A stretch of DNA of 63,619 nucleotides, filler included, from Atractiella rhizophila (lineage: Eukaryota): assembly GCA_021432655.1 (NCBI GenBank). It is 2 parts of 2 records of this genome, joined end to end, with 100 filler letters (N's around TTAATTAATTAA, not from the genome) between each part and the next. Parts side by side here need not be neighbours in the genome. Positions count along the whole stretch, not along the records: positions 31,914 to 63,619 come from MU271691.1; 1 more part is not named here. One strand, 5' to 3'. Below are positions 31,814-63,619 of the stretch, piece after piece; positions within the stretch are counted from its first letter, which is position 1; the number at the start of each line of letters is the position of its first letter. The position numbers were made by a program, and so were the translations under genes. The notes under the pieces were generated by a model. The model was not told the DNA's origin and made no database searches. It saw only the letters and a program-made list of their open reading frames with translations.

Positions 31814-31913
31814 NNNNNNNNNNNNNNNNNNNNNNNNNNNNNNNNNNNNNNNNNNNNTTAATTAATTAANNNNNNNNNNNNNNNNNNNNNNNNNNNNNNN
31901 NNNNNNNNNNNNN
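31814..31913. other. Artificial contig linker/gap (44 N + TTAATTAATTAA + 44 N)
   Basis: N runs flank a 12-mer with stops in all six frames; features on both sides are truncated. Confidence 0.97.
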
Positions 31914-42880: not shown

Positions 42881-44104
42881 CACCTGAGGCCAGATTGGAA
42901 GAATAAACATACCGTTGTACATGCAAAGCAGGCACACAAACGTTTAAACTCGCCATGGTCTGCGGACTCACATTGAGGTGACTCGCTACCGAGTATTGTT
43001 TCTAGTGCAACCTTGCATTTCCGATTTGCTGCCTTGCATGTCAGCGTTTATAGATACCTCAAATCCCCTCATATCGTCACTGCCTCGTCCGAACTCACGT
43101 CTTGCTCTGGAGTTATCAATTCGCTAAGCGCGTACGTTTTTAGCTTTGGGCTTATCAGTTCCGACTTACTTCTTGCTTTGCAGTAACTCTTGCGGGTATC
43201 TTGTCAGATCTTGTCCTCATGGTCCAAATGTGCCTTGTCCAACCACAATACCTCACCAAGCGATTTCCCCCGTTACCGCCAAAAAGACCACGATGTAGCA
43301 AAGGTGAACACTAAACATCCGCCACCTACTAATAGCCAACATAGGATAATATGATGGCGAACACTTACAATGGAGCCATTCACACGGAGTGACGCGAAAG
43401 TACGGGGTTGTAGAAAGGCTTAACTAGACTGCAGTTAGACTGCTACGTAGCGACTGTACTTCTACACCGCTGTCCTAATCCTAATCAACTCCTAGCGTTC
43501 TGGAGGAAACGCTGCATTAGATCCCTTAACCTTCGGATGCCTAGGCACAGCACATGCATTCCTAACCCGACTGAATAAGAACAAAGTCAGCGTTCCAACA
43601 AACGTAAATACTCTAGAGTGTGCATGAGTGCAGTTGGAAACACGTTGCTTTTGGAAAAAAAACCAGCGTAAATTTTCGTAGTTTCAAGCACCTCTGGTCA
43701 GCCTCTTCCACTGTACAGGAAAGCAGTTACCCAACTCGAACATGCATATATCAAGGAAAAGACATATGAAGGGCTCACGTCCTTACTAGTAGGGCTTTAT
43801 GCCTCACCTCAAGCCTCAGGTTTACAGTAAGCACAACCTCAGTCAGTCGTAGTACTCATTCGGATGGCTTTTTAAGCTTGTGATGAAACCCATGATTATT
43901 TCATTTCTCCTTTTCACACTCGAAAAATTTCTACAGTATGAGAAAACTCATAGCACGTGCATGGGTGACTTCATCGACACCCGCCCAAGGAGACCGAAGG
44001 GACGATGAGTACCTCAATACAGGTGCCTGGCAAAGTCGGAACCGATATGCTAAAAGGAAAGGCACATTAGTGACATCACATCCATAATCTATAATCTATC
44101 GCAA

Positions 44105-45673: not shown

Positions 45674-46803
45674 GCAACCTATTACAGGACTTCAACACCC
45701 CCTCAACTGTTTTAATTTGCTGCTGACGATTGTGGTCAACTTATTCACGTGAGCGGCAACGACACAGTTTACAAAGTACACGAAAATGTAAAATGTAGTA
45801 TTAGTATTAACCGACGGGCGAGAAGCGGAGTAAAAGAGTGCCAACCGCCTAAGCCTGTGAATAGTCCGACGCAAAGGCGCAAGTACCACGCCTTCAAGGC
45901 CCATAACGTCATGGCCAGCCATGATGCATCATCATGCATGATCTGGTGTTTCTTCTCATTTGATTTCCCTGTTTTGCTTTTGATTACAGAATATGCAAAT
46001 TTCAATAATCGATGATAACGCTAGCCCACATTTTGAGTCTAAAGCTGTTGAGTTTTATTAGGACGCCTGCAGTTGTATACGAGTAATAATGGTGAAGATA
46101 CGAAGGTTAGAGATATTCTCTCCGAAGTAATCGTAAAAATATGTGATACAGATATATTAGGCAATTACTCAAAAGCATGCAAACTTCTTTTACATCACAC
46201 ATCATCTGATAGAATTAGAGAAGCATCGGTTGTGCCATGTTGTAAAGGCGTTAGGTAAAAGCTATTTCCAGATGGGACAGCTAATCTATTGTTGAATTTC
46301 ATGGTCGAGAATTCGCTTGTGGCGCACAGTTGTCTCCCTCTCAGATTTATTCCTCCTGCACAAACAAGGCATCTTCCACAGGCAGGGAAAGGGAAAGTTC
46401 ACATCTAGCTCGCAGACCAATAGCAATATTGAGTGCGCTAATATTATTACAATGATTTTGCTCCTTCCCATTATTCCACAGCCCCTCATTTTGTTCACTC
46501 ACCGAAATCCTTCCCAATGTACACTCATCCACCTCTTGACCTCACCTTCGCCAAACTTAAGGAGCTTCTTCGTAACATAATCTGTCTTTCAAAGAACGCA
46601 AAATGGCAAAATGCAGGAGCCCAGAATATATGACATTCCTCGATGTCGACTATGCGACATTAGGGCTTGTCGGGATCACTTTTGAGTTTATCACTACCAC
46701 GCACAACAACCACGAAGTCCTAGCCATAAGTCTGGGGGTAAGTGTTTCTGTGTTCCTTAGTTCGACAGCTGACGAATAAGTGAGCTTGTTCCCAGACTCA
46801 GCC

Positions 46804-48996
46804 ATGAGTAACCGCTCTCAGGCCATTCCTATTGTGCATCCAAATGCAGCACCTTCTGACGTGACAACCACTCCCCGAATAACCAGTGAGATTTCGAGAT
46901 CATTGCGACCTAGCGCCCTCACCCTACTTCAGAGCAGCCAACGGACAACATTTGCCGCAACTTCGCAAAGCACGGTTTCTGCAAATTCGAGGGGAATGGA
47001 TGTGCTCACAGTCATGGAGATACTGTGCATGCTTTGACTCCGCACTCTGGATATACATCTTAAGCTTAACTTCCAGATTCGTGATTCCGGTTCCGACTCT
47101 GCCCTAGATAATCCAAGTCGTTCGTCGAACTCCTTCTCAGCCGAACACCTAAAGGCTCCTGTGTTTGTACCGCGAGGTTTGTGGGAAGTAAGTCACTTGT
47201 ACGCACCGAATCCTCCATGAGTTCCTGTACTGAGGTGGATTTGAAGGCGATACCCTACCTTAGTGAGGATAGCTTTCCTTTGAAGGCGATGGTGACTTTA
47301 AGTCCCTAGAATGGGAAATATTTGTCTATTGACGATTCAACAGTGGAAAGACAAGGTTTAACATTGGTTCAACCAGACAGTAACACGAGCGAGGGTAAGT
47401 TGTCGCCATACAGCCCCATATGCTCAAACTGTACAGATCATCATTACGAGTATCCTGGTAACGCAGCCATTCGTCAGGATTTTGAAAGCCGATTGACATC
47501 CCTGCAACTGGACCCTCACTTGCACAAGGGGTTACCTTCTCGTGTTCACAACTACCACAGCTTGCAGCGTCTAGAGCAGTCTTCTTCTCCGTTTGCCTCA
47601 TACAAAATATCGACGTATAGGGCTACATCGAGCGAGGATGGTGACTACTACGTGCTTAAACGGATTGAAGGCTTGTTGTATTTGTGCTTGTCAATGCTGA
47701 TTTGACCTCTCTGGTTAGGTTTCAGACTCCACTCCGAAAAGGCCATCGCCGCAGTGGAAAAGTGGACGCTTCTCAGCCATCCAAATATTGCGCAACTTAA
47801 GGAAGCCTTCACTACCAGATCTTTTGGAGATCAATGTATGCAACGTAGTTCCTGTTCTCGCGCTGATAGATTTTAGCTATTGTCTTCGTATACCACTACT
47901 ATCCTGGCGCAAAAAGCTTGAAACAGGCTAATTTCTGGCACGATCAGTCATTGACGACGCTGGTCCAAGAGAAAAGTCTTTGGTCTTACATTCTACAGAT
48001 TGTGACCGCCATGAAAGCCGTCCACAGTCATGGCCTCGCTGTACGCTTTACCGAAGGGTCATGTCTTCTTTTACTTCCTTCTTCGAGGTTTGTCCTTTTG
48101 CTTTGTCTGAGGATTTAACTCAGTCTGCTCGTAGAATGCGTATTGCCGCCTGTGGCATGTTGGATGTGGTCTTCTATGACGGCGAATCTCCAATCGAGCA
48201 TCAGGCAAGTATTTCGGTAAATGGACCTTCTGGTTGCTTAAGGGCCAGATAGGCTTCAGACTTCACACAACTGGGCAACATTATCCTGTCCATGGCCTGC
48301 AACTTTCCCATCTTCGACTTACATAACGCCATGGAATGGATCTCGACACATTATTCAAACAATCTCACTCGTTTATTGCGATATCTGCTTACTCCACAGC
48401 CGACTCCCAAAAAGCTAGAAGATGTTTTGATTATCTGCTCACCAAATGTACCAGACATCTTGCAGGCCCATCTAGAGTATGTAGACCGAGTCCTAAGAAG
48501 CATTGTGTGACCTCTAACCTCTCGTAGAACAAACGTGAATTTGGAGAAGAATCTGCTACTCGAGATGGGGAATTTGCAAAGGTTTCGTCTTTTATGCAAG
48601 CTAGCCTTCATCAATGAACGTCCAGAGTACGTGCTAGTGATTTAGTGGACATTTGATATTGAAGATATTGAACAGATTCGAGCGCGATTCCCGCTGGTCC
48701 GAAACTGGGGATCGCTACTTGTTGAAATTATTCAGAGACTATGTCTTTCACCAAGTCGACGAGGAAAGAAATCCTATCATTGACCTTTCTCACGTCATTA
48801 GTTGCTTAAATAAGGTATAATCCTGCGTCCCTATTCTGCCCTCTTCGCTTAAAATCCCTCTTAGCTGGAAGCTGGTTCAGATGATATGCTATCACTGGTG
48901 AATTCGGACGAGCAAACGTGCATAATAGTGTCTTATGCTGAGCTCAAGGCATGCGTGCGATCAGCGTTTGCTGATCTGATTAAAGGGAACACATAG
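46804..48996 (+). CDS. PAN3: Pan3 subunit of the Pan2-Pan3 deadenylase
   Basis: CCCH finger [17 protein letters not shown], pseudokinase ([18 protein letters not shown]), [14 protein letters not shown] and [23 protein letters not shown]. Confidence 0.93.
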
Positions 48997-49058
48997 GAGC
49001 GGGATCTTTGTCTGAAAATATCTTGCACAATGTCTCATTGTACCATCCTTGTCACCTT

Positions 49059-52000
49059 CTATTGCGTCGCACGTCGAACCATCTGGCGAAATATTCTGAT
49101 CAGTTCCTAAGTGCAAATATCAGATCAACTGACCTCTCTTGCCCATTTCAGCACCTTTTTCTTGTGTTGATCTGCCAACCTCAGTTTTCCTGTCTTGAAA
49201 ATTTGGTCTATCCACGCTGAACTCAGAATGTCCTTGAGTTGACCTTCCGAAAACGCCTCTGCTAGATCGCCAATGAGGCCTATCGCAGCGACAAGGATGC
49301 TTTCAGGGCGATCTTGATCCGTTAATGCCAAGTGAAGGAACGTGAATACAGATGGCATATACGGCAGTAGCGATTCGGCTTTCCCAGCAGTCTTCAGGCC
49401 ACTGACTATCCCAGTGTAGGCCTCAAGAATCCCCTCTCGCAGGGTGTTAATGTAATCCACGAGATCAAAATTATTCTGTGTCGCATTTGCGTTCAAATCT
49501 CTACGTTCTCTGAAGAGAGCATGAACGTACTGGATCGGCTCGCATGGCTCCAGCCTGTTGTAAAACTGTCATCGTCGATTCAAGAAATGGGACATAACTG
49601 CCGCCAATGGACATTGCGATATCGCCAAAACAACTCAGAATGGGGGGTTTGACGCTGCGATGAAGTACGGGGCTTTGTAAATCTTGCATCAGAACCTCCA
49701 GGAAGTTTTGGCAATATTGAACACTAGCGTCGCCCAAAGCCCGACAGACGTCACCGATCAGTCCGACCCCAATAGAGCATAATTGATATTCTTCGTGGTT
49801 CTGCAGTGCGGCAAATAGGAAAGGTAGGAAGGCAGGCAGATATGGATGGAAGTCTTGCTCTAAGGAAAGCGTTAAAGCTCCAATGGCTAAGAAAATATCC
49901 TCTTGAACTGGTGACGATCTTCCACTAATCTGCAGCAGGCTCAGAAGCACCGTCATGACCCGCTCTGGTTGAAGGTTCTTGATATCTTTTCCAAGCCTTC
50001 TGATACAAGCCTGTTGTCATGCACGCTTTAGCACACATTGTTTCATAGTAAAATCCTTACTGTCAGGACGCAACAACAGTTAATTTGAATTTGGTTCCAA
50101 TTAGTCTTGTCGTCAATTCCAACCAACTGATCGTGGAATGTCATCACTCGTTCCATCTGCTCGATAATGCCGTGGAGTATTTTGTGAACCAAAGTGAGGC
50201 AGTCTACCGGCGCGTTACCTGCCAATGAAGCTAGGGTTTCATAAGCAGAATCTCGACAGTTGCTTTCATTTGTGTTACTAAGAACTTCTGTCAGAGTGAC
50301 CCACTTCGACATTATCCTACGAACCGGTTCGCAAATTTGAACAGTGAAGTTGCTAATGGGTCGTAAAACGGCGTCAGAATGCTGGTGTCCTTCGTTGACC
50401 CGCCGAGCTGTTCAATTAGGTTCATAAGCGCCCAACAGCTGTTGGTGACAACGCGACCCTCGCCATCCTGCACCCCAGCGTCTAACGCTCCTAGAAATGC
50501 TTGAACGAGATGTCCCACAGCCCCTGGGATATTTTGGACCGATTCAACCATATAATCGCAAATCCGACCGAGAGTCCAAGCTGTCGAATCCTTGACGTGA
50601 TTATTCTGATCTTGCATCATCTCGACAAGCACAGGCAATGCTTGCTGCACTAGTGGTGACAATATTTGCGGATTAGGACCGTCGAGGATGGACCCAAATG
50701 CCATAACAGCCGCTTCACGCTGTCGCCAGTCAGTGGCCTTGATGTGAGTTTCAACGAAGGGGATAATTGGGGCAACGATAACGTCGCCTGTAACCTGTGC
50801 GAGTAACGAAAGACATGTGCCTGCCGCCATAGCAAGGTTCCATTCATCCTCCGATGCATCTTCTTCTTGCCGACCTAACAGCTGCAGCAACACCGGTAGG
50901 ATCTCTGGTAAAGCCACGCGCGCAAAGCCGTATGATTGGCGTTCCGGTTGATCGCCGTACTCTGCAGCTTCTTCTGCTTCCAATGAAAGCTCAAGTTCCT
51001 CGTCACATACCGTGGACCAAAATTCGACCGCCTGAATTGCTATCCGTTCGTCCGTGTGCTTCATTCCTAAGACCGTTAACTGCACAACGTCAGATTTGTA
51101 CAAAGAAGATGCTTAAACACACCCCAAATAGAGCACGCTCCATGTAGAACTTCATCTTCTCGTAATAGAGTTGCATTATCCGAACAAGGCATTCAAAAGC
51201 TACTAGCTGAACATCGGCATTGGCAATCTGTGTTGCTTCGCAAACGACCTGCATGATGTAGTTGCGCTCTCCCTGCCATAAATCAGCCCCGTCGGTATAT
51301 GCGCAGGAGCAGATACCTTACTTCACGTTCAAAGTTTTCTTTTATAAACTCGAGCGAGTTGTACAATGCATGAATTGCAGCTAGTTGAACATCAACTCTG
51401 CGTTATCAGTCAACGACAATATATCCTAGAGGAGGATAGCGTACTTCGTTTCTTCTTTGACGGATTGCACCACGCAAGTAAGGATGTCATTTGATTGGGC
51501 TGCAAGGACGTCCGATTTCTGGTTTCGATGGTCAGTTTGCATCAAGTACACCAGGATACAGCTGACAATTTGTTCACAGACAAATCCTAAACATTGCAGC
51601 ATGCTCTGTCTTAGCACTGCCCCATCATCACCGCGAGTACGACTATCATTGATGCCCTGCAGGAGTGTTCCAATCAGTTCAGGCCACATTCCCGCTGGGA
51701 CTTCAATCGCGGCGATAGCGGCAATTATTTGAGCAGACGCATTGCGTATCGCTTTCTCACTGTCCGTTAAACTATGCAGACTTCGTGATTTGATGTTGGT
51801 CCTGATGTCTTCTGAAAGTTCTCGCCACGCCTTTGCGAGCTCAGTTTGTCGAGGGTATTCTCGAGAAGTAAGCGTATTTTTCAAAGATAAGCCTGCGGTT
51901 GTTCGAAGGCCAACTGTGTGCTCCGTTGACGACAGAATTTGGGAGAGGGAAAAAACATAGTTCGAATGATCGCGTGTGAAGAGATCGTCTAGACTCTGCG

Positions 52001-52070
52001 TTGCCTGTGTGCGTGTGTTGGCATCGGGAGACAGAGAATTTGATAACCAGGTCGCAACTTGGGATTCCAT
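49059..52070 (-). CDS. KAP95: Importin beta-1 (karyopherin beta)
   Basis: IBN_N (LSNSLSPDANTR..AGLSLKNTL), QAVEFWSTVCDEE, DWRQREAAVMAFGSILDGP, VKPPILSCFGDIA, LREGILEAYTGIV. Confidence 0.96.
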
Positions 52071-52675
52071 GATTTCAAACAATGTGGCCCTTCTTTGGTG
52101 AAAGCGGTTTGGTTGAGCGTTTGTGCTTGCTTTCGTTTCGTGAACGCGAGATACCTCTTGAAGGAAGGACGATGACAGGTGATGCAGAATGATGCGCTTT
52201 AAAGCGCTTAGCCTCGATTGCTCTCTCACGTGCAGTAACAATGTCTGTGGGAGTTTTCACTTGCCTTGGATCATTTACTCGATGTCAACTGATTTCTGAG
52301 TAACTTAAAGGTTAACATCCTAGACGAGCGGAGGATTCAGCTACCGTTGGTGCGAACAAACCTTATGTCAACTCAATACAAGTGCTACATGGAGCACACG
52401 TTCCTTACCTCAAAGCTAGGTTCCAATATTGATCAGATTGTTGCAAGAGTAAATCTATGGTTAGAGAGGGTTCAGCTTAGTCAACAACCTCATAAGAGAG
52501 ACACATGATAAACCTAGCGGTGTTAAATTGCAGGGTATGCATCGGGAAGTAATCACAATGGCGAAACTCTAATAATGCAGAAAAACGAAATGCTAACGAC
52601 AATTTTCGTTGACTATGCGAAGAAAGCTTTGGGAGAACGAGGGTGGATTTAAACAAATAAAAAAAAAAATACGAA

Positions 52676-54061
52676 TCAAACGAGATCGGCATTGGGACGT
52701 GCAAAACTAGGACGGTCTGAAGATGGTTCTCTGGACAAGGCGGGAGCTGGCTGAGAGGCACTGAATTTTTCACTGTACACTCAAATCAGCCAATGTGTGA
52801 CAACTTAGGACTTGGTGCTTACGTGCGCGACATTCCAAGGGGACCGGAAGATGATGTGGGCAAGCTGGTTGCAAAGAAAGAGGTATTGATGGAGTGTTGG
52901 GACGTCGATCGCTTCAACCAGGACGGTAGGTTAAGGCCAAACCGATTGATGAGGTAATTCGCTAGAAAAGCGAGGCCAGAATAGCGAACGAGAGCCCAAT
53001 AGATGAATCCAACTTCACGTGTGAAGCCAAAGAAAGCGCCAACAAGGACCGCAGATATGAAAGGTGTCCAAGTGTTGAAGTCTAAGGGAGTTGGATCATT
53101 CGTAAAATATACGGTGCCCGGCTGCAGATCTCGACTTAGTACGACCCATTTGTGCAAGATGGTCAAGACGTACATTATTGTGGATGAAATTCCAGTCATA
53201 CGGGATCAAGGGACCAAAATTCTTCCTCAGGTGGTTGAAGTAGAGAAAGCTCGTTGGAAGTCGTATGGCCAAATAGGCGAACCCCAAAGCACAGAGACGA
53301 AGGAAACGTTCTGCCGTCAAGGCAGACTCAGAGGCTGTGAGAAGCTTCTTCCAGTCACGTCGGTGTATCGTCAGCCGGTATACAACGTATACTGTCTTGA
53401 AATTAGCCACCAAAACCTTCGTCTGAGAGAATACTTACGACCATACAAAGAGGAGTACACGGCCAAAATCACAGGCCAGAGGAGGAATAGAGGATAAATG
53501 GCCCAAACATTGATGGCGGTATACGAACAACCCACTCCGTTGATGAGGCCGTAACGTGAAGGCTGATAAATGATGTGGGTCGCCATGACAAAGATGGGGA
53601 AACCAAAACTGAGAGCGTAGTTAAAGGCTGCTTGTCGCCGCCTTTCGGCCTGATTAAAGAATCCAGCCCCAGGTTGTACCACTTGAGCCAGGTAGCGAAT
53701 AATGCAAAAAAGTGACGCAGGATTCCCGACGGAGGAAGCCAACTCCAACTATATTGATGTCAGAAATCAGCAAGATGAAACAATTCATTGCTGTAACTTA
53801 CCTTAGCCGTGATGTCACAGAAAACGGGCGCTCGATCAATTGCATCGTTTCGCCAGATGAGCACGTTAATCTGGGGGGATGAGTGAGAAGGGATGAGGCA
53901 TCCATGCTCCGACTCACCGCATTAATGATAGGCATCAGAATCACCCAAAACATCAAGCATACTAATGCAGAATTCCCTTTCCGAACATTGAAGACGAAAG
54001 GGGGGATGTTGAAGATGGCAACCAGGAAGTTGAGAGTGATGAACGCTATAGTGGCACTCAT
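52676..54061 (-). CDS. STE3: STE3-type pheromone receptor (7TM GPCR), five exons
   Basis: NVLIWRNDAIDRAPVFCDITAK, SLFCIIRYLA, HIIYQPSRYGLINGVGC, RFLRL, WNFIH and FFGFTRE; four canonical introns; ends NADLV*. Confidence 0.95.
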
Positions 54062-54791
54062 GTTGATTCAGCTGGGAAACATTCATGACAGAAGGTAGCT
54101 TTTAAATGATCAGTACTTTGTTCCTTCGGAAGTTTCTCCTTGACGGTAACGATAACCACAATCCGACGTACAGGGAAAATACGGAAACAGATAACGTTTG
54201 TTTATGTAATAGGCGCTTCCTCCCGCTTTTAAACCTTATATCCCAAAGACCTTAATCTTATTCCCTTACCAAGAGGATCCTGGCTATCGGGTCAACTTTG
54301 CGGGACAAAGGTCAGGCTCGAACTTACTCCTTCTTATGTTTGCCAAGTGCAAGGGGGATTCATTGTCCAATTCAATTTTGGGTAATATGCTATATGCCAC
54401 AGACCCTAGTCAAGACGGTAGTGCTTTCGTTGTGTTTACCCGTAGTGATAGTGAAAGCATTGAAGCTACTGTCGGAAACCTTGCTCAATTGAACCTCAAA
54501 CGTGTATTGTCGTCACATTTAGCAGTTAGAAATTACGTGTAAGCTACCACCTCACATCATGATCACAGCGCAGATAGCCATATGTATCAAACTGAGCCTA
54601 CTGGTGGTAAGTAAAATGGGAACTCACTGAGTGCAACAACGCAATTGGACGGAGTGTAACAATATGCCGTAGTTTAGTCTGAACTTCAACTTTCAAGGGG
54701 TTGTACTGCTGCCATCTACTTTCCCTCTCATCTGCATCAACCCTAAGCCATTTTGCACAGATACCGTCCAACTGAGCCCCCTCCTAGGATT

Positions 54792-56802
54792 ATGGTGGAT
54801 CACATCACTACCCGCCGATATTCACGTTCCCCAACGACATCGCCACAGCCTTCTCCTTCACCCAAAGCTTCCCCTTCAGGGAAGCGGTCTTCCTTCTTTT
54901 CCCTACCAGGATCTCCCTCTCGGTCATCCTTTGAAGTTCATCGGGTCGTCAAGAAGTCCACAGTTCGAGGTTACACTGATGACGAGCTCAGTGGAGGGGA
55001 ATGTAGTCCTGTCGAGGAAAAGCAAATCGCTTTCCCACAGTTCATATCCGATAGAGATGTCGCGAGCAATCTTCATCTGAGTGCACCGCCACCAGTCCTT
55101 GTCAATCCCAACCCGGAACACGCAGTCCGGCGCAAACCTGCCCCGAAGGTCAGTGAGGGCGAATTGTCCTCTCTCTCTCAGAAGTCCACTACTCTTTCAA
55201 GCTCCAGGGACGCTTCCCCTTCCAGGGAACCTCAGAGTTCTCTCTTTACGTCTCAACCGTTTCCCACACAATCTCCCACAAGTACACCGCTCGACAGTCC
55301 CAAACTCAACCCAATATCTAGTCCAAGGACTGAAGGAGGGCTGGCAAGTCGCTTCTTGAGTGGATTCAAGCTTGGAGTGAGTCTTGGTAGAGGCAGGAAA
55401 GGAAGTGACGGCTCTATCAGCGGAGAAGATGATAATATTGGGTTCCAAACTACGCGCGTTGCGGCACATCTTACCGGTCCGAGGGAGATGAGAAACAACC
55501 GTGATAAAAGTCTTCCTGGCTTCCCAACGAACGTATCAGAAGGCAGTGGAAGCCAGAGCGGGGATTTAAATATAGACTCGGACCAAAAGGAGGTTGCTCA
55601 GAGGTCGGTATTTGCACAAATACTTTTGCTTTCTCCTTATATTATGGCAAAGCAAAATGACACGGTTCCTTGACGATGCTCTTGCGAACGCAGCGACTCA
55701 CTCTCAATCAACTCTCGCAACTCCTTGGTCCCCTGTTCAAGCTGTTCCTGTTCCGTCAGCATCCCCCCTGACCGAAGCCCAAAAGATTGCGGCGCGCGCT
55801 CGACTGTCCTTGCCTCCACCAGCTTCTACGTCCTCCCTTTCCCCCACTCCGTCTCCTCCAATACACGGTCTCCCTCCTCTACAAGTCGCTAATTCGAGCC
55901 CATTGCTTTCTGTTGACAGTTTGACATCATCCACAAGTGCTGCAAGTCGGTCTCGCAACTCTTTGGATGAATTCGGTTCTGGCTCAGCTTTTGATCGTGG
56001 AGGTACGGCAGGCAGCAACGATGTTACCATTGGATCGAAATACTCATCTCCTCCTCAGCCTACTACTCCGGCTTCCCAGAAGATTCTGTCTACCGCTTCC
56101 CGACAAGCTCCCGCCATCCCCCAAGCCAAGCATCACCCATACATAGCTCTGACGTCTGATGGTGGCATCGATGTCGAAAGAACCCTCGTTGATCTCGTGT
56201 TGAGGTTTGAGAAGCTGGAGAGATGGGTTGTCCCAAGAGTGAAAGGTCTAGAGCAGATGGAGAGAGATCTGGAGGCTAAACTGCAGACAGTTACTACGAC
56301 TAGTCATGATGCAGATGAGTGCTTGAAACTTGATATTCAGAGCCTGCAAAGGAAGGTGCATGAGTTGGAAGGGATGCTCTCTGCATCCCGAGTGCCTGTA
56401 CACGCTCAAGTTATTGGCAGTTCGACATCCCAGGTCTTTGACTCAGAGTATAAGGGCGGCGACTCAGCTTTTCAAGGAAGTCCCAGGTCACCGAAGCTGG
56501 ACGAATCAAGTTTGAATAATAACAGTCACACAGCACCGAGTACGCTTGACCATGATGGTACGCATTTGCCAGCGCCGCAAGCGAGTACGGCGCAAGCCAC
56601 AGCAGAGAAACCTGGTAGAACTCGAACGCAGTCACTCACACCAGCGATGGACATTCCCGAGGAAGGTCGAAGACGAGCGATAACTCGGCCAGACTTCAGT
56701 AGGCAACATGGGAGGTCTCAAAGCAATGTGCCGAATTTGCCAGGACGAGGCACCGGGGTAGGAAAGTTGGTAAAAATGTTTGAGAAAAAGGATTCGATTT
56801 AA
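54792..56802 (+). CDS. Ser/Pro-rich hypothetical protein with central coiled coil
   Basis: Two long ORFs (306 and 402 aa) joined by a likely intron near 55607-55670; LVLRFEKLERWV..LERDLE heptads. Confidence 0.75.
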
Positions 56803-58219
56803 TTGCTAGTAACGCGGACGTAATGCGACGTAGGCGAGTGTTTTTTTAATCGTTGTATAGAAGATTAGCGTGAGATCATGAAGAATTTTTGATGCACCTG
56901 GAATGTAGTGCGTCCGTCCCTTTTCACTACCTCTCAATCTTTGGACGAGTTGCACTGCTTTTGCTTTTTCTTTTGCTCGCCTTATATATTTCTTGTCAAG
57001 GTGAGTAAGAGAGTATGTCGTCCTCATTGAACGTTTATAGCAGTTCCATCATGTGGATCGGGCATTACGCGACAATGTCCTAGCAAGAGAGGGCTCACCA
57101 TAGTAGAAGTGGAAGTCTCTGAAAGTGTTATTTGTTCGTCCATTCAGGAAGGATAGAGCAGCGAGACTTCCCCAAGTGGTTTGAGTGGTTTCCCTTGTGG
57201 GCTATCAACATCCAAAGAGCAAGGTTTTGTCGCACTTCATTTTGGTGGGTTTCATGTGTGTTGTGTACACGAAGTTAACGGCCATGGTGTCTGCATTGTG
57301 GCTCAATTAGTCGCGACCATACTTATATGTGACATCCTCTGCTCTGCGGAACAGATCTGTATCCTTATGACAGAACGCTTCGACCCATTGACAGAGTCAT
57401 CTCTTTGCAGTAGACCACATGAATCGTCACTGGTCACATTGGCGCTGTGATTTCACCCGAAATGAATGGTTCTCGTCAGTCTACGGCAGCAAGTGAGACT
57501 CTCAATGTTTTTTGGAACGCATTCACCGCGCGATCTTCGGTGAGTGCACTACTGTGGGCAAAACGGGAGTTGTTCGGGCCGTCTGGCGACATGGAAAAGA
57601 CATGGCGATTATGTGCAGGAACAGGTTGCACATGTTTTGGGTAGTTGTAGCCTAGTGTGAACGGTTGGACTCATTTCCTCAATCAGACAGACTGTGAGCT
57701 CCGCGAGCTCAGAATGTGGAGTTCTGCTAGTAAGAACGAAAAAGGACGCTACGATTGCATTCACCATCATTACGCCAAAGGCAAGACAAACATTGAGAAA
57801 GAGCCGAAGTTAGGAAACAGAAAGCCAGAACAACAAGCAGATTTATTGCTGTGAGAGCAGAAGGCAAAGGGGAAGAAGAACGATGAGAACTGGGAGCGGT
57901 GAGAATGAGCGAAGGTGGTGAAAGAGGTCTAAAGCTGCATGCGTGTTGCGAGAGAGCAGAATGGAAGAGGCACTGACTCTGCGAAGAACAGAAGAATTGT
58001 AGGAATGAGCGTAAGTCGGACTCTTTGAACGCGATAACTCGAAACGGAAACGATAACTTGAGAAACGAAGAATAAAAAATGTTGTTGAGAGAATTGAGGG
58101 TCGACCCGATGAGAAGAGCCGGAAGGGGAATAAGTGTAATTTTCACGTCGTGTTCAACTGCGTTGTCAAAAGCCAGTCAGATGCCGGGTCTGAATAAAAT
58201 GATTGAAGGAACATACAAT

Positions 58220-58483
58220 TTAGGCAATGATGCAGTTTCCGCCGCCAGCAGGGGGCCCAGCCTTCGCAATGATGCAGTTTCCGCCGCCGGCAGGAGGTCC
58301 CGCCTTCGAGATGGAGCAGTTTCCTCCTCCAGCAGGAGGACCAGCTTTAGAGATGGAGCAATTTCCGCCTCCAGCAGGGGGTCCGGCTTTCGCTATGTCG
58401 CAGTTTCCACCACCAGCTGGAGGTCCAGCCGCGGCAGGCGCTTCAGGAGCAGGAGCTTCGATGGCAAGTTGAAGGGGATTCAT
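58220..58483 (-). CDS. RHA: Mating pheromone precursor copy 1 (5 x AGPPAGGGNC; terminal CAAX CIIA)
   Basis: 87 aa; repeats separated by three residues plus K; terminal CAAX; about 4 kb from STE3; rhodotorucine-precursor architecture. Confidence 0.92.
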   Translation of the reverse strand: MNPLQLAIEAPAPEAPAAAGPPAGGGNCDIAKAGPPAGGGNCSISKAGPPAGGGNCSISKAGPPAGGGNCIIAKAGPPAGGGNCIIA

Positions 58484-58580
58484 GTTGTTGGACTTAGGTT
58501 AACTAGTCTGAAATCTTGACAGCTGTCAAAGTAAACTTGATGTGTTTGCTTGAGAGTGGGCGTTCAATTCAGTCGTCAAC

Positions 58581-58587
58581 TTATATA
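58581..58587 (-). promoter_or_regulatory. Putative TATA box of pheromone copy 1
   Basis: TATATAA about 100 nt upstream of the ATG. Confidence 0.5.
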
Positions 58588-58932
58588 CAATCTGTGGTAC
58601 GGAAGTGAAAAAGGGTGAGTACGTAATAGTTCGAATGCCATTCGAAGGAAACGATACCGGATATTGTGATCCAGATCTACGGTAACTACGCGTGTGATCC
58701 AAAACAGTGGGTTTTACTGCTGCTTTCTGCCGAAAGCTGCCCATAACACGGGGCCGGCCGAGAGCGTTATTGTTGTACGCATCTGCTGCCAAATGCCACT
58801 TCCGTCAGCACAATCATTCCATCAAACAAAGAAATATTCAACAACCAGTTCAAAATTATGTTTCCATTATTTCGGCTTAGCTATTTGTCAGTCGGTTTTG
58901 GCGTTCCTTCTCACAACAATGTATGTACAGGA

Positions 58933-58940
58933 TATAAAAG
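58933..58940 (+). promoter_or_regulatory. Putative TATA box of pheromone copy 2
   Basis: TATAAAAG about 90 nt upstream of the ATG. Confidence 0.55.
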
Positions 58941-59027
58941 AACCTGGTGACCGCACAGCTCTACAGTTTGCTTGACAGCTATCGAGCATTCAAAGTCCCA
59001 GCCCAGTCTACAGCTTGAATATTCATC

Positions 59028-59291
59028 ATGAATCCCCTTCAACTTGCCATCGAAGCTCCTGCTCCCGAAGCGCCTGCCGCGGCTGGACCTCCAGCTGGTG
59101 GTGGAAACTGCGACATAGCGAAAGCCGGACCCCCTGCTGGAGGCGGAAATTGCTCCATCTCTAAAGCTGGTCCTCCTGCTGGAGGAGGAAACTGCTCCAT
59201 CTCGAAGGCGGGACCTCCTGCCGGCGGCGGAAACTGCATCATTGCGAAGGCTGGACCCCCTGCTGGCGGCGGAAACTGTATTGTTGCCTAG
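59028..59291 (+). CDS. RHA: Mating pheromone precursor copy 2 (terminal CAAX CIVA)
   Basis: Same 87-aa protein as copy 1 except for the CAAX; divergently oriented. Confidence 0.92.
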   Translation: MNPLQLAIEAPAPEAPAAAGPPAGGGNCDIAKAGPPAGGGNCSISKAGPPAGGGNCSISKAGPPAGGGNCIIAKAGPPAGGGNCIVA

Positions 59292-59756
59292 ACGTGCGCT
59301 CTCCTCTCCTATGATCAGTGTTCCCTCAGCTGTCCCTGATTCGTATTACAGGAACTGTCCTCTCGCGACCGCTTTGGCTCCTTCTCGGCTCTTCTCGACG
59401 TCTTATTTATCTACCTGCAGCCTCCTCGTTTGCTTGCTTCTTTGCTTGTCGCTTCTCCGCACCATGCATTGTTTGGTCCGTTATGTCTTCTTTCTTCCAC
59501 GCTTTCCCTTCCTTCAGTTAGTTTCATCATCTCTACTTGCTCTCGTCGCATCTCATCCCAACGCTGCCGTATGCTTTTTTGTCCACTTCAAGCAGTGCTC
59601 AACCTCTAAACCGACCTAAACTTGCAATTTACAATGTCTTTGACCTTCTTCGGAACTCATAGGCTGCCTGCCAACCCTCCCTTGCACTTAACTCATTGCG
59701 ATATAATTACAAGGTGTGCAATGTGCAAACGAGGAGCATTTTGAAGCAGGAACGAA
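59184..59756 (+). repeat. Left arm of an inverted duplication (partner 63048-63619+)
   Basis: Reverse complement of the window end with only a few substitutions or indels; identical shadow ORFs in the ORF track. Confidence 0.92.
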
Positions 59757-60226
59757 ATATTTATAGAGCCAAGTCCCCCTTTATGATCCATCTGACAGCT
59801 TCGCCTGTGGCTATTATCCCTCAATCTCGACAGAATTAGTGCTGTAGCCTACCCCGACTATTATTCCACTGTACTGTGGGCGACAACGATGTCAAACATA
59901 CGCAAGGAACCACAGATGATCAGTTAAATGTCTCTAGCTGAACGCCTCCATTCGATACAGGCCTCTCTTGCATGTGAAACATCGAAAGCAGCTTGCTAGT
60001 TAATATTAAACTGCTCTGCATCACCTTGTAGCGGCGACTACGCTGAGATATATGATAGCACTTGTTTCTCTTTACATAACCAATCGTCCATGTCGAAATA
60101 ATCAGATCAACTTTCTAATTCCTTCCTTCCATCCCTCCCCCACTCCACGAGTTGGCATTCGATGGTTTAGTTCGAGTCTTCAGGCAATTTTCTTGCCCCC
60201 CCATTTTAGTCTAGGGGTGTCCAGGC

Positions 60227-60473
60227 TGTGCTGCATGAATGTACATGGGCTGTGTGTAACCAAGCGGGAGGCACAGTTTCCCCTTTTGATTCGCTATCAC
60301 CTGAAATAAGGAATATTTCCCTCTTTCCCTTTGTACACATTCGTACACACCTGAACTTCCAGCAGATAAAGTAGGAGCTCGAATGGTGATATCGGCTCGG
60401 ATGGTATGACCTGAAGAGTGCTGATTAAAGCAACAATGGCGCATTTTGCGTTCCTTCAGAGCATTTCAGTTCG
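60227..60473 (+). repeat. 247-bp direct repeat, copy 1
   Basis: TGTGCTGCATGAAT...GCATTTCAGTTCG also present at 62805-63051 with scattered differences. Confidence 0.9.
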
Positions 60474-61182
60474 ATCGATTTATTGGGGAAGCGGAATTGT
60501 GCACACACTCTCTCGCTCAAATGAGGAGTTTATCCTGCGTTGGCTCATGCGATTCGAATACCCTGGGAGCATGCAAGAGCTCTAAATTCCCGAGTCCTTT
60601 TCGGCCTAAATTGGCTGTAAAGGCGAATTATTATATGAAATGAAGGGCATTTCTCAAGTGGGGCGGGTCCCCATGGCATCATTTGATACGTCTGGGTGGG
60701 GTGCCTACGGTAATGAATAAGTATAGGGTGTGACAAAGATCAGCAGAGTCTTCAAGTAGACCCCCGAAGCCAAGACATGCCAAAAATAAACTATAAAAGA
60801 TCGTAACATTTACATGGTCCTTGTCAGGAAGGTGAGAAGATGAAATGCATACCTCGGGCATTCTCTGACACCTCGACAGCAACGACGTCTGTTGCTTCTA
60901 CAGCCTTTCGCCAGCTCCTCCCACCCTAGCAGGACGAAACAACTAAGCTGGACCATTCCGGCGCATCTCCCGCCTTTGTTAAGTTTTGTTGCACTGCCTC
61001 ACACCAAGATAATATATGTTTTCTTTCCGCGATTTCAACAACTATTTTCGACCACCTAGTTCAACAGTGAATGGGGCCACGATGGAACACGTGCAGCTGA
61101 TCTCGTTTGAGAGAATGCCATTACCACCAATAAACGGGTCCATAGAAGAGGCAAGTGATGTCAGAAGGCAAGCTCCCTTGCT

Positions 61183-62228
61183 TAGGGATGGCTATCGTAC
61201 CCTATCGTCGCCTCAGCACCACTTCCGGACGGTACGTGTCCCTGTCTCAGCTCATATTGCACTGTAACAATTTTTTCGTTGTCAGATATACGTACGAGTA
61301 TGGCGGGAAACGGGAGAATAACAGATTACGGGTTATATGGCATAACAATTTCATCACAGCCTTTGGTGTCACACTTTCATCTTTTCTGAGCCTCCTGCTC
61401 TGCAATATCATCCTCCAATGTCTTCAGCTCCCTCTGCAACTCTGTGAGACGAGATTTCCGTTGCATGTGCAATGTGGTCTTGAGCATGATGAGGTTGCAT
61501 ATCTCTCAGGATCTCGACAGTGACGGCGAATACCTATGGTATCACGAGCACCAGAGAAGATGTGCTCGACTTCCACAGCACATGTAACAATGAAAACCTG
61601 AAAACGAGAATACTTTGGGGGGACACGCAACGGAATAGCTAGAATATCTTGAGCCAGAAAAGACATGGTGTGCCAGTTGTGCTTTGACTCATAAGTGGAC
61701 CAGCTTCCAAGCCATGGGTGCATGCTAGTTGATTTCCTTCATTGCTCCATCTTCATCTGCTCCTGCCTTTGGACCATGACCGTAGAAGCGAGATAATTGG
61801 CCGTCAGGTTTGGATTCACTCGGGACAGCTTTGCCTGGCTTGGAGCGGGTTGAACTGCTGTGACCTCGAGAATGGAGAGAGTTGAAGGTGTTTATATGTT
61901 TGAGAAGAGGAAGGATGCGTTATTTGTGCTCATGCTGTCTTGTTTCATCAGCTGCAGCTTCAATGTGTCAGTTTTGAAGAATCTAAGAACGCTGCAAAGG
62001 AAGCACGGACCACATCATTGAGAGAGTATGCAACTGTTACAGACCGGCCTCCACTGTCCTCCTTTGTAACCACTGCTCCAGCGGCGTATTGCCGTCCTCC
62101 GCCGTAACCCGTAATACGACGGATTTTCTGGATGAGAACAGAGGGGACGTGGAGGATGGCATATCGTATCGTATCGGAACAGTCAAATCGGACATGTTCA
62201 AGACGGTCCGATCCGATCCCCATCCCAA
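61183..62228 (-). mobile_element. Non-autonomous hAT DNA transposon (about 1.05 kb)
   Basis: TIRs TAGGGATGG / CCATCCCAA; flanking direct repeat CCTTGCT at 61176-61182 and 62229-62235; relic hAT dimerisation motif LAQDILAIP...VEVEHIFSGARDTIGIRRH. Confidence 0.8.
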
Positions 62229-62804
62229 CCTTGCTGTCGCATAGCTCATAGGAACATCGTACAGGAGAATTCATTGATACCATACAAGTCCTAGATTTGC
62301 TGCGGAGAGAATTTGACAATTGAGAACGTTGAGCTCTTCTTTTCATTGCACTACATGTACCTTTGAAAACAATGCTTCGCTTTCCCTCTGTTTTCGCGTC
62401 ATCATCGTGCTGTTACTTGCGAGTATTTTACATGCTGAGTTTGTCATTTCTGACGTCTGCCTTTTTGAACCGGGGTCTGCTGCGGCACTGTGAGGGAGCC
62501 TCGAAATCGGCGAGTGTCCTCATACCACGCTATTGATGGGATGCACAAGAAACAGTAGAGGTAACTGGTGTGGCCGTGGCTATGGGATCTTCTTGGGAGG
62601 AAAGTGAGAGTAGCGCTGAATATTTGTGATTCAAATCGTGATGATCTTTAAGTCGTGTTGAACGTGAACTTGAAGAACAATCGATGAACTTTGAATGATG
62701 ATTGGTGTAATTTGATACCTTGAATGTTGAATGCCCCAACATTGAACACCAAGAGTTGATGTAGGTCGATCAAGGGGTGGATAGATGATGCACATTGCCC
62801 ACGG

Positions 62805-63051
62805 TGTGCTGCATGAATTTACATGGGCTGTGTGTAACCAAGCAGGAGGGACTGTTTCCCCTTTTGATTCGCTATCACCTGAAATAAGGAATCTTTCCCT
62901 CTTTCCCTTTGTACACATTCGTACACACCTGAACTTCCAGCAGATAAAGTAGGAGCTCGAATGGTGATATCGGCTCGGATGGTATGACCTGAAGAGTGCT
63001 GATTAAAGCAACAATGGCGCATATTGCGTTCTTTCAGAGCATTTCAGTTCG
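62805..63051 (+). repeat. 247-bp direct repeat, copy 2
   Basis: Matches 60227-60473. Confidence 0.9.
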
Positions 63052-63619
63052 TTCTGCTTCAAAATGTTCCTCGTTTGCACATTGCACACCTTGTAATTAT
63101 ATCGCAATGAGTTAAGTGCAAGGGAGGGTTGGCAGGCAGCCTATGAGTTCCGAAGAAGGTCAAAGACATTGTAAATTGCAAGTTTAGGTCGGTTTAGAGG
63201 TTGAGCACTGCTTGAAGTGGACAAAAAAGCATACGGCAGCGTTGGGATGAGATGCGACGAGAGCAAGTAGAGATGATGAAACTAACTGAAGGAAGGGAAA
63301 GCGTGGAAGAAAGAAGACATAACGGACCAAACAATGCATGGTGCGGAGAAGCGACAAGCAAAGAAGCAAGCAAACGAGGAGGCTGCAGGTAGATAAATAA
63401 GACGTCGAGAAGAGCCGAGAAGGAGCCAAAGCGGTCGCGAGAGGACAGTTCCTGTAATACGAATCAGGGACAGCTGAGGGAACACTGATCATAGGAGAGG
63501 AGAGCGCACGTCTAGGCAACAATACAGTTTCCGCCGCCAGCAGGGGGCCCAGCCTTCGCAATGATGCAGTTTCCGCCGCCGGCAGGAGGTCCCGCCTTCG
63601 AGATGGAGCAGTTTCCTCC
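63048..63619 (-). repeat. Right arm of the inverted duplication (runs off the window)
   Basis: Reverse complement of 59184-59756. Confidence 0.92.
63512..63619 (-). CDS. RHA: Mating pheromone precursor copy 3, 3' part
   Basis: ...GGNCSISKAGPPAGGGNCIIAKAGPPAGGGNCIVA*; truncated by the window end. Confidence 0.88.
   Translation of the reverse strand, partial: GGNCSISKAGPPAGGGNCIIAKAGPPAGGGNCIVA

What the first reader, a model, noticed from the sequence alone, without database searches (positions are those of the whole stretch)
49059..63619. Pheromone/receptor mating-type locus: KAP95-STE3-orphan-three pheromone genes
Seen: an intact STE3 and three CAAX pheromone precursors within about 11 kb, next to KAP95 and PAN3, with local repeats and a transposon. 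Known: basidiomycete P/R loci link STE3 with lipopeptide precursors, and as I recall KAP95 is P/R-linked in Sporidiobolales yeasts. Inference: this is the P/R locus of a Pucciniomycotina fungus, possibly one whose mating system is undescribed. No HD or STE20 gene is in the window.
Basis: partly seen in the sequence, partly recalled or inferred. Interest (0 to 1): 0.8.

Follow-up and report, generated by a model that had tools for sequence, protein, structure and literature searches.

The report
Atractiella pheromone/receptor mating-type locus
This stretch is one version of the pheromone-and-receptor mating-type locus of the root fungus Atractiella rhizophila; a second, strongly diverged version sits elsewhere in the same assembly, which gives a first look at mating genes in a fungal class where they appear undescribed.

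Summary
Window 49059-63619 carries KAP95 (9 exons), an intact six-exon STE3 receptor, a Ser/Pro-rich orphan gene, and two complete pheromone genes plus one truncated one. PAN3 lies just left.

Each complete pheromone precursor has five copies of AGPPAGGGNC. Each copy is followed by a CAAX-type tail, and all but the last by a lysine. The copies differ only at synonymous third codon positions.

Spliced STE3 and pheromone transcripts occur in three public runs. The proteins match NCBI Atractiella rhizophila records exactly. The window ends at a contig end, inside a 100% inverted repeat.

The same assembly holds a second STE3 (37% identical) next to a second KAP95 (82% identical) on a 53-kb contig. 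DNA contigs show that locus is colinear for PAN3, KAP95 and the orphan, at twice the depth.

My best reading is that the window is one P/R haplotype and the other contig is the alternative allele, in a heterokaryotic or diploid isolate (about 0.6). Paralogy, a hybrid genome or a mixed culture are not excluded.

No HD, STE20 or STE12 gene was found. This is a new member of a known kind, of moderate interest.

The parts
44269..45813 (+). Unnamed gene (ORFs 44269-44697 and 44654-45673), no Pfam domain. It has a diverged counterpart at the second locus.
   Evidence: No Pfam hit. RNA contig X3 record 8 covers 44728-45813. A second X1 DNA contig of depth 169.8 aligns with small indels at 44279-44373.
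46296..48900 (+). PAN3 (approximate limits; no exact gene model made)
   Evidence: Pan3_PK domain at 48641-48817, E = 9.9e-23. The diverged second-locus contig (depth 171.5) aligns in pieces across 46851-48607.
49059..52070 (-). KAP95-A (importin beta-1), 9 exons, 873 aa
   Evidence: P0156 (KAH8915998.1) maps exactly. Exons: 52070-51567, 51518-51444, 51396-51322, 51272-51123, 51079-50324, 50276-50061, 50010-49531, 49475-49134, 49082-49062, then TAG. Pfam TPR_IMB1 scores 486 bits.
52547..54061 (-). STE3-A pheromone receptor: CDS 54061-52676 in 6 exons, with 3'UTR reaching at least 52547
   Evidence: P0001 maps exactly and the stop is seen. Introns 52773-52822, 53122-53173, 53392-53438, 53749-53801 and 53871-53917 are removed in X3, X4 and X6 contigs and present in DNA run X1. 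Pfam STE3 scores 247 bits.
54769..57270 (+). Orphan gene: Ser/Pro-rich protein of about 653 aa with a short predicted coiled-coil stretch. CDS 54792-55601 plus 55651-56802.
   Evidence: X3 RNA contig 54769-55601 joined to 55651-57270. Translations. No Pfam family. The Atlas gives only 'hypothetical protein' Basidiomycota clusters at 0.88. The second-locus contig aligns at 54964-55118 and from 56140.
57731..58483 (-). Pheromone gene g1: CDS 58483-58220 (87 aa, 5 repeat units), a 59-nt intron at 58216-58158 just after the stop, 3'UTR to 57731
   Evidence: Translation and repeat analysis. The 58157/58217 joint, GT..AG on the minus strand, is in X3, X4 and X6 and not in X1. A loose T8 run before 57731 in X6 marks a poly(A) tail.
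58484..59027 (.). 544-bp region between the divergently oriented g1 and g2, the presumed shared promoter
   Evidence: Read directly from the sequence. It holds the only AACAAAGAA in the window, at 58825-58833 (not significant window-wide).
59028..59291 (+). Pheromone gene g2 (87 aa; 6 nt differences from g1, one non-synonymous in the last CAAX tail: IIA to IVA)
   Evidence: X6 contig 59007-59278 covers it.
59184..59749 (.). Left arm of the 100% inverted repeat (3' part of g2 plus 458 nt downstream)
   Evidence: the repeat finder pair I1
60218..60476 (.). Direct repeat D2, copy a (96% identical to copy b at 62796-63054)
60964..62291 (.). Genome-wide multi-copy repeat with no recognisable transposon protein domain
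   Evidence: Depth 540-1214 in X1 against about 88 for neighbours, with many variant contigs. No Pfam or PDB hits.
62796..63054 (.). Direct repeat D2, copy b, abutting the right inverted-repeat arm
63054..63619 (.). Right arm of the 100% inverted repeat, cut by the contig end
   Evidence: The window's last 31,706 bases equal the contig length recorded for P0001 and P0156.
63512..63619 (-). Pheromone gene g3, 3' part only (35 codons plus a stop, ending CIVA)

Best explanation
Window 44-63.6 kb is one haplotype, here called A, of the pheromone/receptor (P/R) mating-type locus of Atractiella rhizophila.

STE3-A is a seven-helix pheromone receptor. Beside it lie at least three pheromone genes: g1 and g2 are a divergent pair, and g3 is an inverted copy of g2. 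Depth data suggest a fourth gene just beyond the contig end.

Each complete precursor has a 17-residue leader followed by five copies of AGPPAGGGNC. Every copy is followed by a CAAX-type tail, and all but the last by a lysine.

Inferred by analogy with Sporidiobolales RHA precursors and a-factor biogenesis: the precursor is cut into units, each cysteine is farnesylated, the three tail residues are removed, and the new C-terminus is methylated. One transcript would then yield five identical lipopeptides. These would be exported and activate the receptor of the opposite haplotype.

The opposite haplotype, B, is most likely the 53-kb contig that carries STE3-B next to KAP95-B. It also has diverged copies of PAN3 and the orphan gene. 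That implies recombination has long been suppressed across at least the 44-57 kb segment, and that the sequenced isolate carries both mating types.

Shown: the gene models, expression, repeat structure, selection on the peptide, and the existence, colinearity and adjacency of locus B.

Inferred: pheromone processing, which receptor pairs with which pheromone, allelism of A and B, and recombination suppression.
For: Identity of the organism and gene models:
- Exact mapping of P0001 and P0156 onto the window.
- STE3 Pfam score 247 bits, covering profile positions 2-288 of 292.

The pheromone peptide is under selection:
- In g1, 8 variable sites in the 30 peptide-coding nucleotides are all at third codon positions. 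In g2 there are 9, also all third positions.
- Differing codon pairs are 47 synonymous to 0 non-synonymous in g1, and 48 to 0 in g2.
- The tail codons (AAX plus K or stop) do vary: 18 non-synonymous pairs in g1 and 22 in g2.
- Only these three genes carry the motif anywhere in the window.

Transcription and strand:
- Spliced STE3 and g1 contigs occur in X3, X4 and X6, with GT..AG introns on the minus strand and a poly(A) trace. These joints are absent from DNA run X1.

Phylogeny:
- STE3-A sits in a 15-member Pucciniomycotina clade (support 100/99) with Mixia, rusts, a Rhodosporidiobolus STE3 and a protein named 'mating pheromone receptor a2'.

Second locus:
- STE3-B (P0008, KAH8918741.1) is 37% identical (103/279). 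KAP95-B (P0157, KAH8918742.1) is 82% identical (712/873).
- An X1 contig of 10,460 nt aligns at about 82% nucleotide identity to KAP95 and, through joints of the same depth, to PAN3 and the orphan.

Age argument:
- The STE3 pair is as diverged as STE3s from different classes (P0001 to Mixia is 40%).
- The KAP95 pair (82%) is far closer than KAP95 between classes (about 62-63%, measured on the 266-aa exon used as query).
- One segmental duplication would give both genes the same age. An old receptor polymorphism with later-captured flanks fits better.

Precedent:
- Inverted repeats around pheromone genes, tandem pheromone peptides and KAP95 linkage are described for red yeasts (passages read in PMC3236058, and in 10.1101/2025.09.11.675505).
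Against: - Allelism of A and B is not shown. I could not read the 53-kb contig, so its pheromone genes, gene order beyond the aligned pieces and its boundaries are unknown.
- Locus B contigs have depth 171.5 and 169.8 against 87.8 for locus A. Neither a 1:1 dikaryon nor simple haploid paralogy predicts this 2:1 ratio. It needs an extra assumption such as an unequal nuclear ratio, an extra chromosome copy, a duplicated B, or a mixed culture.
- The tree does not resolve whether A and B are sisters. It shows a polytomy, and holding them together is not rejected (AU p = 0.105).
- The peptide is rich in glycine and proline and lacks aromatic residues. From recall, that is unusual among known lipopeptide pheromones.
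- No mating phenotype, sexual stage or segregation data were seen.
- The NCBI record calls the STE3 model 'partial', although start and stop are both present in the window.
Confidence: 0.72

Rival explanations
1. Loci A and B are two paralogous or homeologous P/R loci in a single haploid genome. They would have arisen by an old segmental duplication, a hybrid or duplicated genome, or the bringing together of compatible receptor and pheromone sets. That would make the fungus self-fertile, or use one receptor for non-mating signalling.
For: - Both loci are in one assembly and both KAP95 copies are transcribed in X3 (depth 189 against 306).
- Both copies of KAP95 are full-length and gap-free.
- Monophyly of STE3-A with STE3-B is not rejected (AU p = 0.105).
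- No data on ploidy were available (no genome held).
Against: - One duplication event should give STE3 and KAP95 pairs of similar relative age, yet STE3 is at inter-class divergence (37%) and KAP95 is not (82% against about 62-63% between classes).
- A haploid genome predicts equal depth, and 2:1 was observed.
- Retaining duplicate intact PAN3, KAP95 and orphan genes is not required for homothallism.
Confidence: 0.18
2. The sequenced material was a mixture, or an unstable association, of two related Atractiella genotypes or species. In that case B is simply the orthologous region of the more abundant partner, which carries another mating type.
For: - The 2:1 depth ratio holds over contigs longer than 10 kb (171.5 against 87.8).
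- KAP95 divergence is high for alleles: 82% overall and only 52% in the first 97 residues.
Against: - An RNA data set (X3, dated 2013 against 2016 for X1) holds both KAP95 forms in a similar ratio, about 1.6:1.
- Exact look-ups found each of the four proteins once, in its own cluster. Whether other genes are duplicated could not be checked.
- This rival does not change the reading of the window as a P/R locus.
Confidence: 0.07
3. STE3-A is a non-mating STE3-like receptor, and the small repeat ORFs are not pheromone genes but, for example, low-complexity transcribed repeats.
For: - The peptide is of low complexity (Gly/Pro-rich).
- The other frames of the repeat are also open.
- The precursors are not in the protein collection, so they are probably unannotated.
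Against: - All variation among the repeat units is synonymous in the CAAX frame only.
- The frame ends in C-aliphatic-aliphatic-X directly before the stop in all three copies.
- Transcript polarity matches that frame.
- The genes sit next to a STE3 in inverted repeats, as in red yeasts.
Confidence: 0.03

Closest known systems
P/R (MAT A1/A2) locus of Sporidiobolales red yeasts (Rhodotorula toruloides, Sporidiobolus salmonicolor) and Leucosporidium scottii
   Same: - STE3 is linked to several pheromone precursor genes that encode tandem peptide copies with CAAX-like motifs.
- The pheromone genes are embedded in inverted repeats.
- KAP95 lies inside or next to the locus (passages read in PMC3236058, and 10.1101/2025.09.11.675505).
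   Different: - None of the other core genes listed for Rhodotorula (STE20, STE12-like, LSM7, RIBL6, RPAC1, DDOST, ribosomal S19, RRM, RIBL18AE) was found in the 63.6-kb window.
- PAN3 and an orphan gene flank the receptor instead.
- Both Atractiella receptors fall in the clade that holds the a2-type receptors. The Sporobolomyces johnsonii receptor P0025, presumably the other red-yeast type, groups with Agaricomycotina and Ustilaginomycotina receptors.
- The peptide sequence is unrelated.
Rust fungus (Pucciniales) P/R genes
   Same: Rust STE3 proteins (Austropuccinia, Phakopsora, Cronartium, Melampsora, Puccinia triticina) fall in the same 100/99-supported clade as both Atractiella receptors. 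One phylogenomic analysis places Atractiellomycetes as sister to Pucciniomycetes (passage read in PMC13347111).
   Different: No rust locus was examined here. The Austropuccinia STE3 and KAP95 are on contigs of different lengths (9,811 and 40,677). Rust pheromone gene structure is not compared here: I only recall it and did not check it.
Mixia osmundae STE3
   Same: Mixia has the closest named relative of STE3-A (40% identity). Its STE3 (P0154) and KAP95 (P0225) are both recorded on a contig of 843,379 nt, so they may be linked there too.
   Different: The distance between the two Mixia genes is unknown and no Mixia pheromone genes were examined.

Membership tests
STE3 / a-factor-type pheromone receptor (Pfam PF02076) | Full-length match to the STE3 profile above the curated cutoff | tested here: met
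   P0001 scores 247 bits against a cutoff of 29.2, covering profile positions 2-288 of 292. P0008 scores 254 bits.
STE3 / a-factor-type pheromone receptor (Pfam PF02076) | Multi-pass membrane topology (7 helices) | tested here: inconclusive
   A crude Kyte-Doolittle scan gives six clear hydrophobic segments in STE3-A, with a seventh below my threshold. No structure was predicted.
Basidiomycete P/R mating-type locus | STE3 receptor physically linked to lipopeptide pheromone precursor gene(s) ending in CAAX | tested here: met
   STE3 ends at 54061. g1, g2 and g3 lie at 58.2-63.6 kb and end in CIIA, CIVA and CIVA.
Basidiomycete P/R mating-type locus | Two or more strongly diverged allelic versions at the same chromosomal position | tested here: inconclusive
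   A second colinear STE3-KAP95-PAN3-orphan locus exists in the same assembly. Allelism versus paralogy was not tested, and the 2:1 depth is unexplained.
Basidiomycete P/R mating-type locus | Pheromones of one allele activate the receptor of the other; role in mate recognition | not testable with these tools
   This needs peptide and receptor assays or crosses.
Basidiomycete P/R mating-type locus | Genes are expressed | tested here: met
   Spliced STE3 and g1 transcripts in X3, X4 and X6; a g2 contig in X6.
Multi-copy (RHA-type) pheromone precursor as in Sporidiobolales | Tandem copies of the mature peptide, each followed by a CAAX-like motif, in one precursor | tested here: met
   Five units of AGPPAGGGNC, each followed by DIA, SIS, SIS, IIA or IIA/IVA, and all but the last by K. 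The red-yeast feature is taken from the legend of Additional file 3 and the text of PMC3236058. That the red-yeast spacer residue is also lysine is recalled, not checked.
Multi-copy (RHA-type) pheromone precursor as in Sporidiobolales | Sequence homology to RHA precursors | not tested
   No RHA sequence was fetched. The peptide part is clearly different from what I recall, so only the architecture is compared.
Linked P/R-HD (bipolar) MAT locus | HD1/HD2 homeodomain genes near STE3 | tested here: not met
   No homeodomain hit among 483 scanned ORF translations of the 63.6-kb window. Linkage beyond the contig cannot be judged because the window ends at a contig end and no genome is held.

The most novel reading that the evidence does not exclude
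The sequenced Atractiella rhizophila isolate is a stable heterokaryon with an unequal nuclear ratio of about 2 B to 1 A. It carries two ancient P/R haplotypes whose non-recombining region spans not only STE3 but also KAP95, PAN3, the orphan gene and perhaps the whole 53-64-kb contigs. KAP95-STE3 adjacency, now seen in Atractiellomycetes and in Microbotryomycetes, and possibly in Mixia, would then be a remnant of the P/R locus of the common ancestor of these Pucciniomycotina classes. It would be a linkage kept for hundreds of millions of years.
Probability: 0.3. Interest if true: 0.65.

Novelty: new member of a known kind. Interest (0 to 1): 0.5.

Why it matters
Atractiellomycetes is a class of Pucciniomycotina. 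My four searches of the paper library found no description of its mating genes.

- The locus gives that class a receptor, a predicted pheromone, and very probably both mating-type alleles from one assembly.
- It shows that multi-copy CAAX precursors in inverted repeats, and the KAP95-STE3 neighbourhood, are not peculiar to red yeasts. This bears on how the ancestral basidiomycete P/R locus was built.
- It suggests that a root endophyte known mostly from cultures and amplicon surveys has the machinery for sex, and was sequenced in a state that holds two mating types.
- The pheromone genes are not in the protein collection, so they are probably unannotated in the public record.

Tried and rejected
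- **Whole genome:** none is held for this window, so HD genes and genome-wide duplication could not be checked.
- **Fetching locus B:** the metagenome scan with STE3-B returned only two distant relatives (32-35% identity, short contigs L001 and L002) and not locus B.
- **Earlier scan notes:** nothing on this genome or on similar sequences. The word search returned only unrelated bacterial and archaeal findings.
- **hAT transposon idea:** I thought ORF 61427-61738 (-) looked like a hAT dimerisation domain. Pfam at E up to 5 and PDB sequence searches gave nothing, so I dropped it.
- **Orphan gene:** no Pfam family. The Atlas gave only unnamed Basidiomycota clusters at 0.88, which is below the level worth trusting.
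- **HMG-box or pheromone-response motifs:** AACAAAGAA occurs once in the window, in the g1-g2 spacer, but 61 of 100 shuffles give at least one match. ACAAAGG occurs 14 times against 9.7 expected. Neither is evidence.
- **AU test:** it did not reject STE3-A and STE3-B as sisters (p = 0.105), so trans-specific polymorphism is not demonstrated.
- **Word-indexed homologue search:** with full-length STE3 it found only 4 proteins. The exhaustive search was needed.
- **Other CAAX-ending small ORFs:** those at 39531, 45055, 50510 and 57609 lack repeats and lie inside other genes or UTRs. I treated them as chance.
- **Depth as expression:** depth figures of contigs were not used to rank expression, following the tool's warning.

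Full report
**What is there**

The window has about 48% G+C and is intron-rich.

Two NCBI proteins labelled Atractiella rhizophila map onto it without a single mismatch.
- KAH8915999.1 (P0001, STE3, 378 aa) maps onto six minus-strand exons, 54061-52679, followed by TGA.
- KAH8915998.1 (P0156, importin beta/KAP95, 873 aa) maps onto nine minus-strand exons, 52070-49062, followed by TAG at 49061-49059.

The window has two 44-N runs at 31814-31913. The 31,706 bases to their right equal the contig length recorded for both proteins. So position 63619 is a contig end, not an arbitrary cut.

PAN3 lies to the left of KAP95, with a Pan3_PK domain at 48641-48817.

Between STE3 and the pheromone genes lies a transcribed two-exon gene, 54769-57270. 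It encodes a Ser/Pro-rich protein of about 653 aa with no recognisable family.

**The pheromone genes**

g1 (58483-58220, minus strand) and g2 (59028-59291, plus strand) are transcribed divergently from a 544-bp spacer.

Each encodes MNPLQLAIEAPAPEAPA followed by five units of AGPPAGGGNC. Each unit is followed by a three-residue tail (DIA, SIS, SIS, IIA, then IIA or IVA). All but the last are followed by lysine, and the last tail is followed by the stop.

Among the five units:
- The 30 peptide-coding nucleotides vary at 8 sites in g1 and 9 sites in g2, all at third codon positions.
- Differing codon pairs are 47 synonymous to 0 non-synonymous in g1, and 48 to 0 in g2.
- The tail codons (AAX plus K or stop) change the amino acid in 18 pairs (g1) and 22 pairs (g2).

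This is the signature of selection on the peptide in this frame, not of a neutral repeat.

g3 is an inverted, 100% identical copy of the 3' part of g2. Only 35 codons remain before the contig end. No other ORF in the window carries the motif.

The exact precursor sequences are absent from the 15-billion-protein collection, so they are probably unannotated.

**Expression**

Contigs of three runs from different studies (X3, X4, X6) lack all five STE3 introns, which have GT..AG ends on the minus strand. They also lack a 59-nt intron just after the g1 stop codon. The probable source DNA run X1 keeps all of these.

X6 shows a poly(A) trace at the g1 3' end (57731) and a contig over g2.

The X4 and X6 STE3 contigs differ from the window at one to three positions per listed piece. 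So other samples carry the same receptor allele almost unchanged.

**Repeats around the genes**

- g1 and g2 form a 267-nt, 98% inverted repeat.
- 59184-59749 and 63054-63619 form a 566-nt, 100% inverted repeat that runs off the contig.
- 60218-60476 and 62796-63054 are 96% direct repeats.

In X1, the A-locus single-copy pieces have depth 82-95. Pieces 57614-58286 and 58455-59056 have depth 171 and 199. I infer that the palindrome arm continues beyond the contig end and that a fourth gene, a copy of g1, lies there. This is not shown.

Window 60964-62291 is a genome-wide multi-copy repeat at depth 540-1214, without a detectable transposon domain.

**A second locus**

An exhaustive HMMER search with STE3-A found 1,115 relatives at E up to 0.001. 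Among the closest is a second A. rhizophila STE3, KAH8918741.1 (P0008, 352 aa), which is 37% identical (103/279).

A search with a KAP95 exon found a second A. rhizophila KAP95, KAH8918742.1 (P0157, 873 aa). It is 82% identical (712/873) with no gaps. Identity ranges from 52% in the first 97 residues to 98% at residues 292-388.

In run X1, a 10,460-nt contig aligns to KAP95-A with 42 differences in 239 nt and 28 in 151 nt. Through joints of the same depth, it also aligns to the PAN3 region (46851-48607) and to the orphan gene (54964-55118, and from 56140). Another contig aligns with indels at 44279-44373.

Locus B is therefore colinear with the window over at least 44.3-56.1 kb and diverged throughout. 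Both KAP95 forms are present in RNA run X3.

**Alleles or paralogues**

- The STE3 pair is as diverged as STE3s of different Pucciniomycotina classes (40% to Mixia).
- The KAP95 pair is much closer (82%) than KAP95 between classes (about 62-63% on the query exon).
- One duplication copying both genes would not give that contrast. An old receptor polymorphism with flanks that stopped recombining later would.
- This, the colinearity, and the comparable sizes of the two contigs favour two haplotypes of one locus in a heterokaryotic or diploid isolate.

Against a simple version of that reading, B contigs have twice the depth of A contigs (171.5 and 169.8 against 87.8). A 1:1 dikaryon and a haploid genome with paralogues both predict equality.

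An unequal nuclear ratio, an extra chromosome copy, a duplicated B, or a mixed culture would each explain the ratio.

**Phylogeny**

A FastTree of 146 of the 153 stored STE3 proteins (7 shorter than 280 aa were dropped) was built. A careful IQ-TREE of 31 rows that I chose, the 15 clade members plus 16 others, was built.

Both place STE3-A in a clade with support 100/99. By the names, that clade holds:
- STE3-B.
- Mixia.
- Rhodosporidiobolus lusitaniae.
- Meredithblackwellia 'mating pheromone receptor a2'.
- Two rust groups.

Within the clade the order is unresolved. STE3-A pairs with an unnamed metagenome protein, P0006 (support 93/92). Forcing A and B together costs 9.9 log-likelihood units and is not rejected (AU p = 0.105).

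A Sporobolomyces johnsonii receptor (P0025) groups instead with Agaricomycotina and Tilletiaria receptors. So both Atractiella receptors belong to the a2-like lineage, as the rust receptors do.

**Comparison with known loci**

Passages read in bioRxiv 10.1101/2025.09.11.675505 list the Rhodotorula P/R core as STE3, RHA, STE20 and a STE12-like gene. They also list KAP95, LSM7, RIBL6, RPAC1, DDOST, ribosomal S19, RRM and RIBL18AE, and cite the same genes in Leucosporidium scottii.

Passages read in PMC3236058 describe three things:
- Tandem pheromone peptides with CAAX-like motifs.
- Pheromone genes embedded in inverted repeats, thought to be kept alike by gene conversion.
- RHA2 amplified with primers anchored in STE20 and KAP95.

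The supplementary PDFs of that paper were not seen.

Of these features, the Atractiella window shares the receptor, the multi-copy precursor architecture, the inverted repeats and KAP95. The other core genes were not found among 483 ORF translations scanned. Twenty-five short ORFs inside the Copia region were left out, and exons under about 50 codons would be missed.

- R. lusitaniae STE3 and KAP95 are two locus tags apart.
- The Meredithblackwellia pair shares a contig length of 920,051.
- The Mixia pair shares a contig length of 843,379.

This hints that KAP95-STE3 linkage is widespread in the subphylum.

**Novelty**

Four searches found no paper on mating genes of Atractiella or Atractiellomycetes:
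- 'atractiella' with 'ste3'.
- 'atractiellomycetes' with 'mating' and 'pheromone'.
- 'atractiella rhizophila'.
- 'atractiell' with 'mating-type'.

I read passages of PMC13347111. The other hits were judged from the search listings only. Subscription journals are not covered by the library.

**Verdict**

This is a P/R locus of a known kind in a class where none appears to have been described. The useful extra is that the alternative version is already in the assembly.

Noticed in passing
window 43700-57643 compared with locus B contigs (run X1): Locus B contigs have almost exactly twice the k-mer depth of locus A contigs (171.5 and 169.8 against 87.8). Neither a 1:1 dikaryon nor haploid paralogues explains this.
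   Followed up: partly
window 57614-59056 and beyond 63619: Pieces flanking g1 have double depth (171 and 199) although they occur once in the window. This suggests the palindrome continues past the contig end with a fourth pheromone gene, and that the assembly broke in the inverted repeat.
   Followed up: partly
window 31814-35455: A Copia-type retroelement (RVT_2 at 31866-33191, retroviral SH3-like domain at 34625-35089) lies directly beside the two 44-N assembly gaps (31814-31857 and 31870-31913).
   Followed up: no
window 58825-58833: The only AACAAAGAA in the window lies in the g1-g2 spacer. I recall this as resembling the binding core of HMG-box pheromone-response factors. It is not significant window-wide (61 of 100 shuffles give at least one match).
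   Followed up: partly
KAP95-A (P0156) against KAP95-B (P0157): Divergence is very uneven: 52% identity in residues 1-97, and 94-98% in residues 195-388 and 680-776. This could reflect different constraint or past gene conversion.
   Followed up: no
window 25869-27557: An HSF-type DNA-binding domain (25869-26081) is followed by long ORFs with no known family: a transcription factor gene about 26 kb from STE3.
   Followed up: no
window 1-46000: Other genes seen by Pfam: Fe/Mn superoxide dismutase (about 1.2-1.8 kb), APH-type phosphotransferase (5.3-6.1 kb), SPC12 (10.5-10.8 kb), DUF747/TAPT1-like (11.6-13.3 kb), mitochondrial L36 (about 16.7 kb), ATG8 (17.9-18.1 kb), short-chain dehydrogenases (13.5-13.9 and 20.1-21.4 kb), GST (21.9-22.3 kb), PHD finger (30.3-30.9 kb), C2 domain (38.0-38.4 kb), malate/lactate dehydrogenase (41.7-42.5 kb). 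None is a known mating gene.
   Followed up: no
runs X4 and X6 on window 52547-59569: Spliced STE3-A and pheromone transcripts, with one to three base differences per listed piece, occur in samples of other studies. So the A allele is present and transcribed outside the sequenced culture.
   Followed up: partly
P0001 record: NCBI labels the STE3-A model 'partial', although an ATG at 54061 and a TGA after 52679 bound it in the window.
   Followed up: yes
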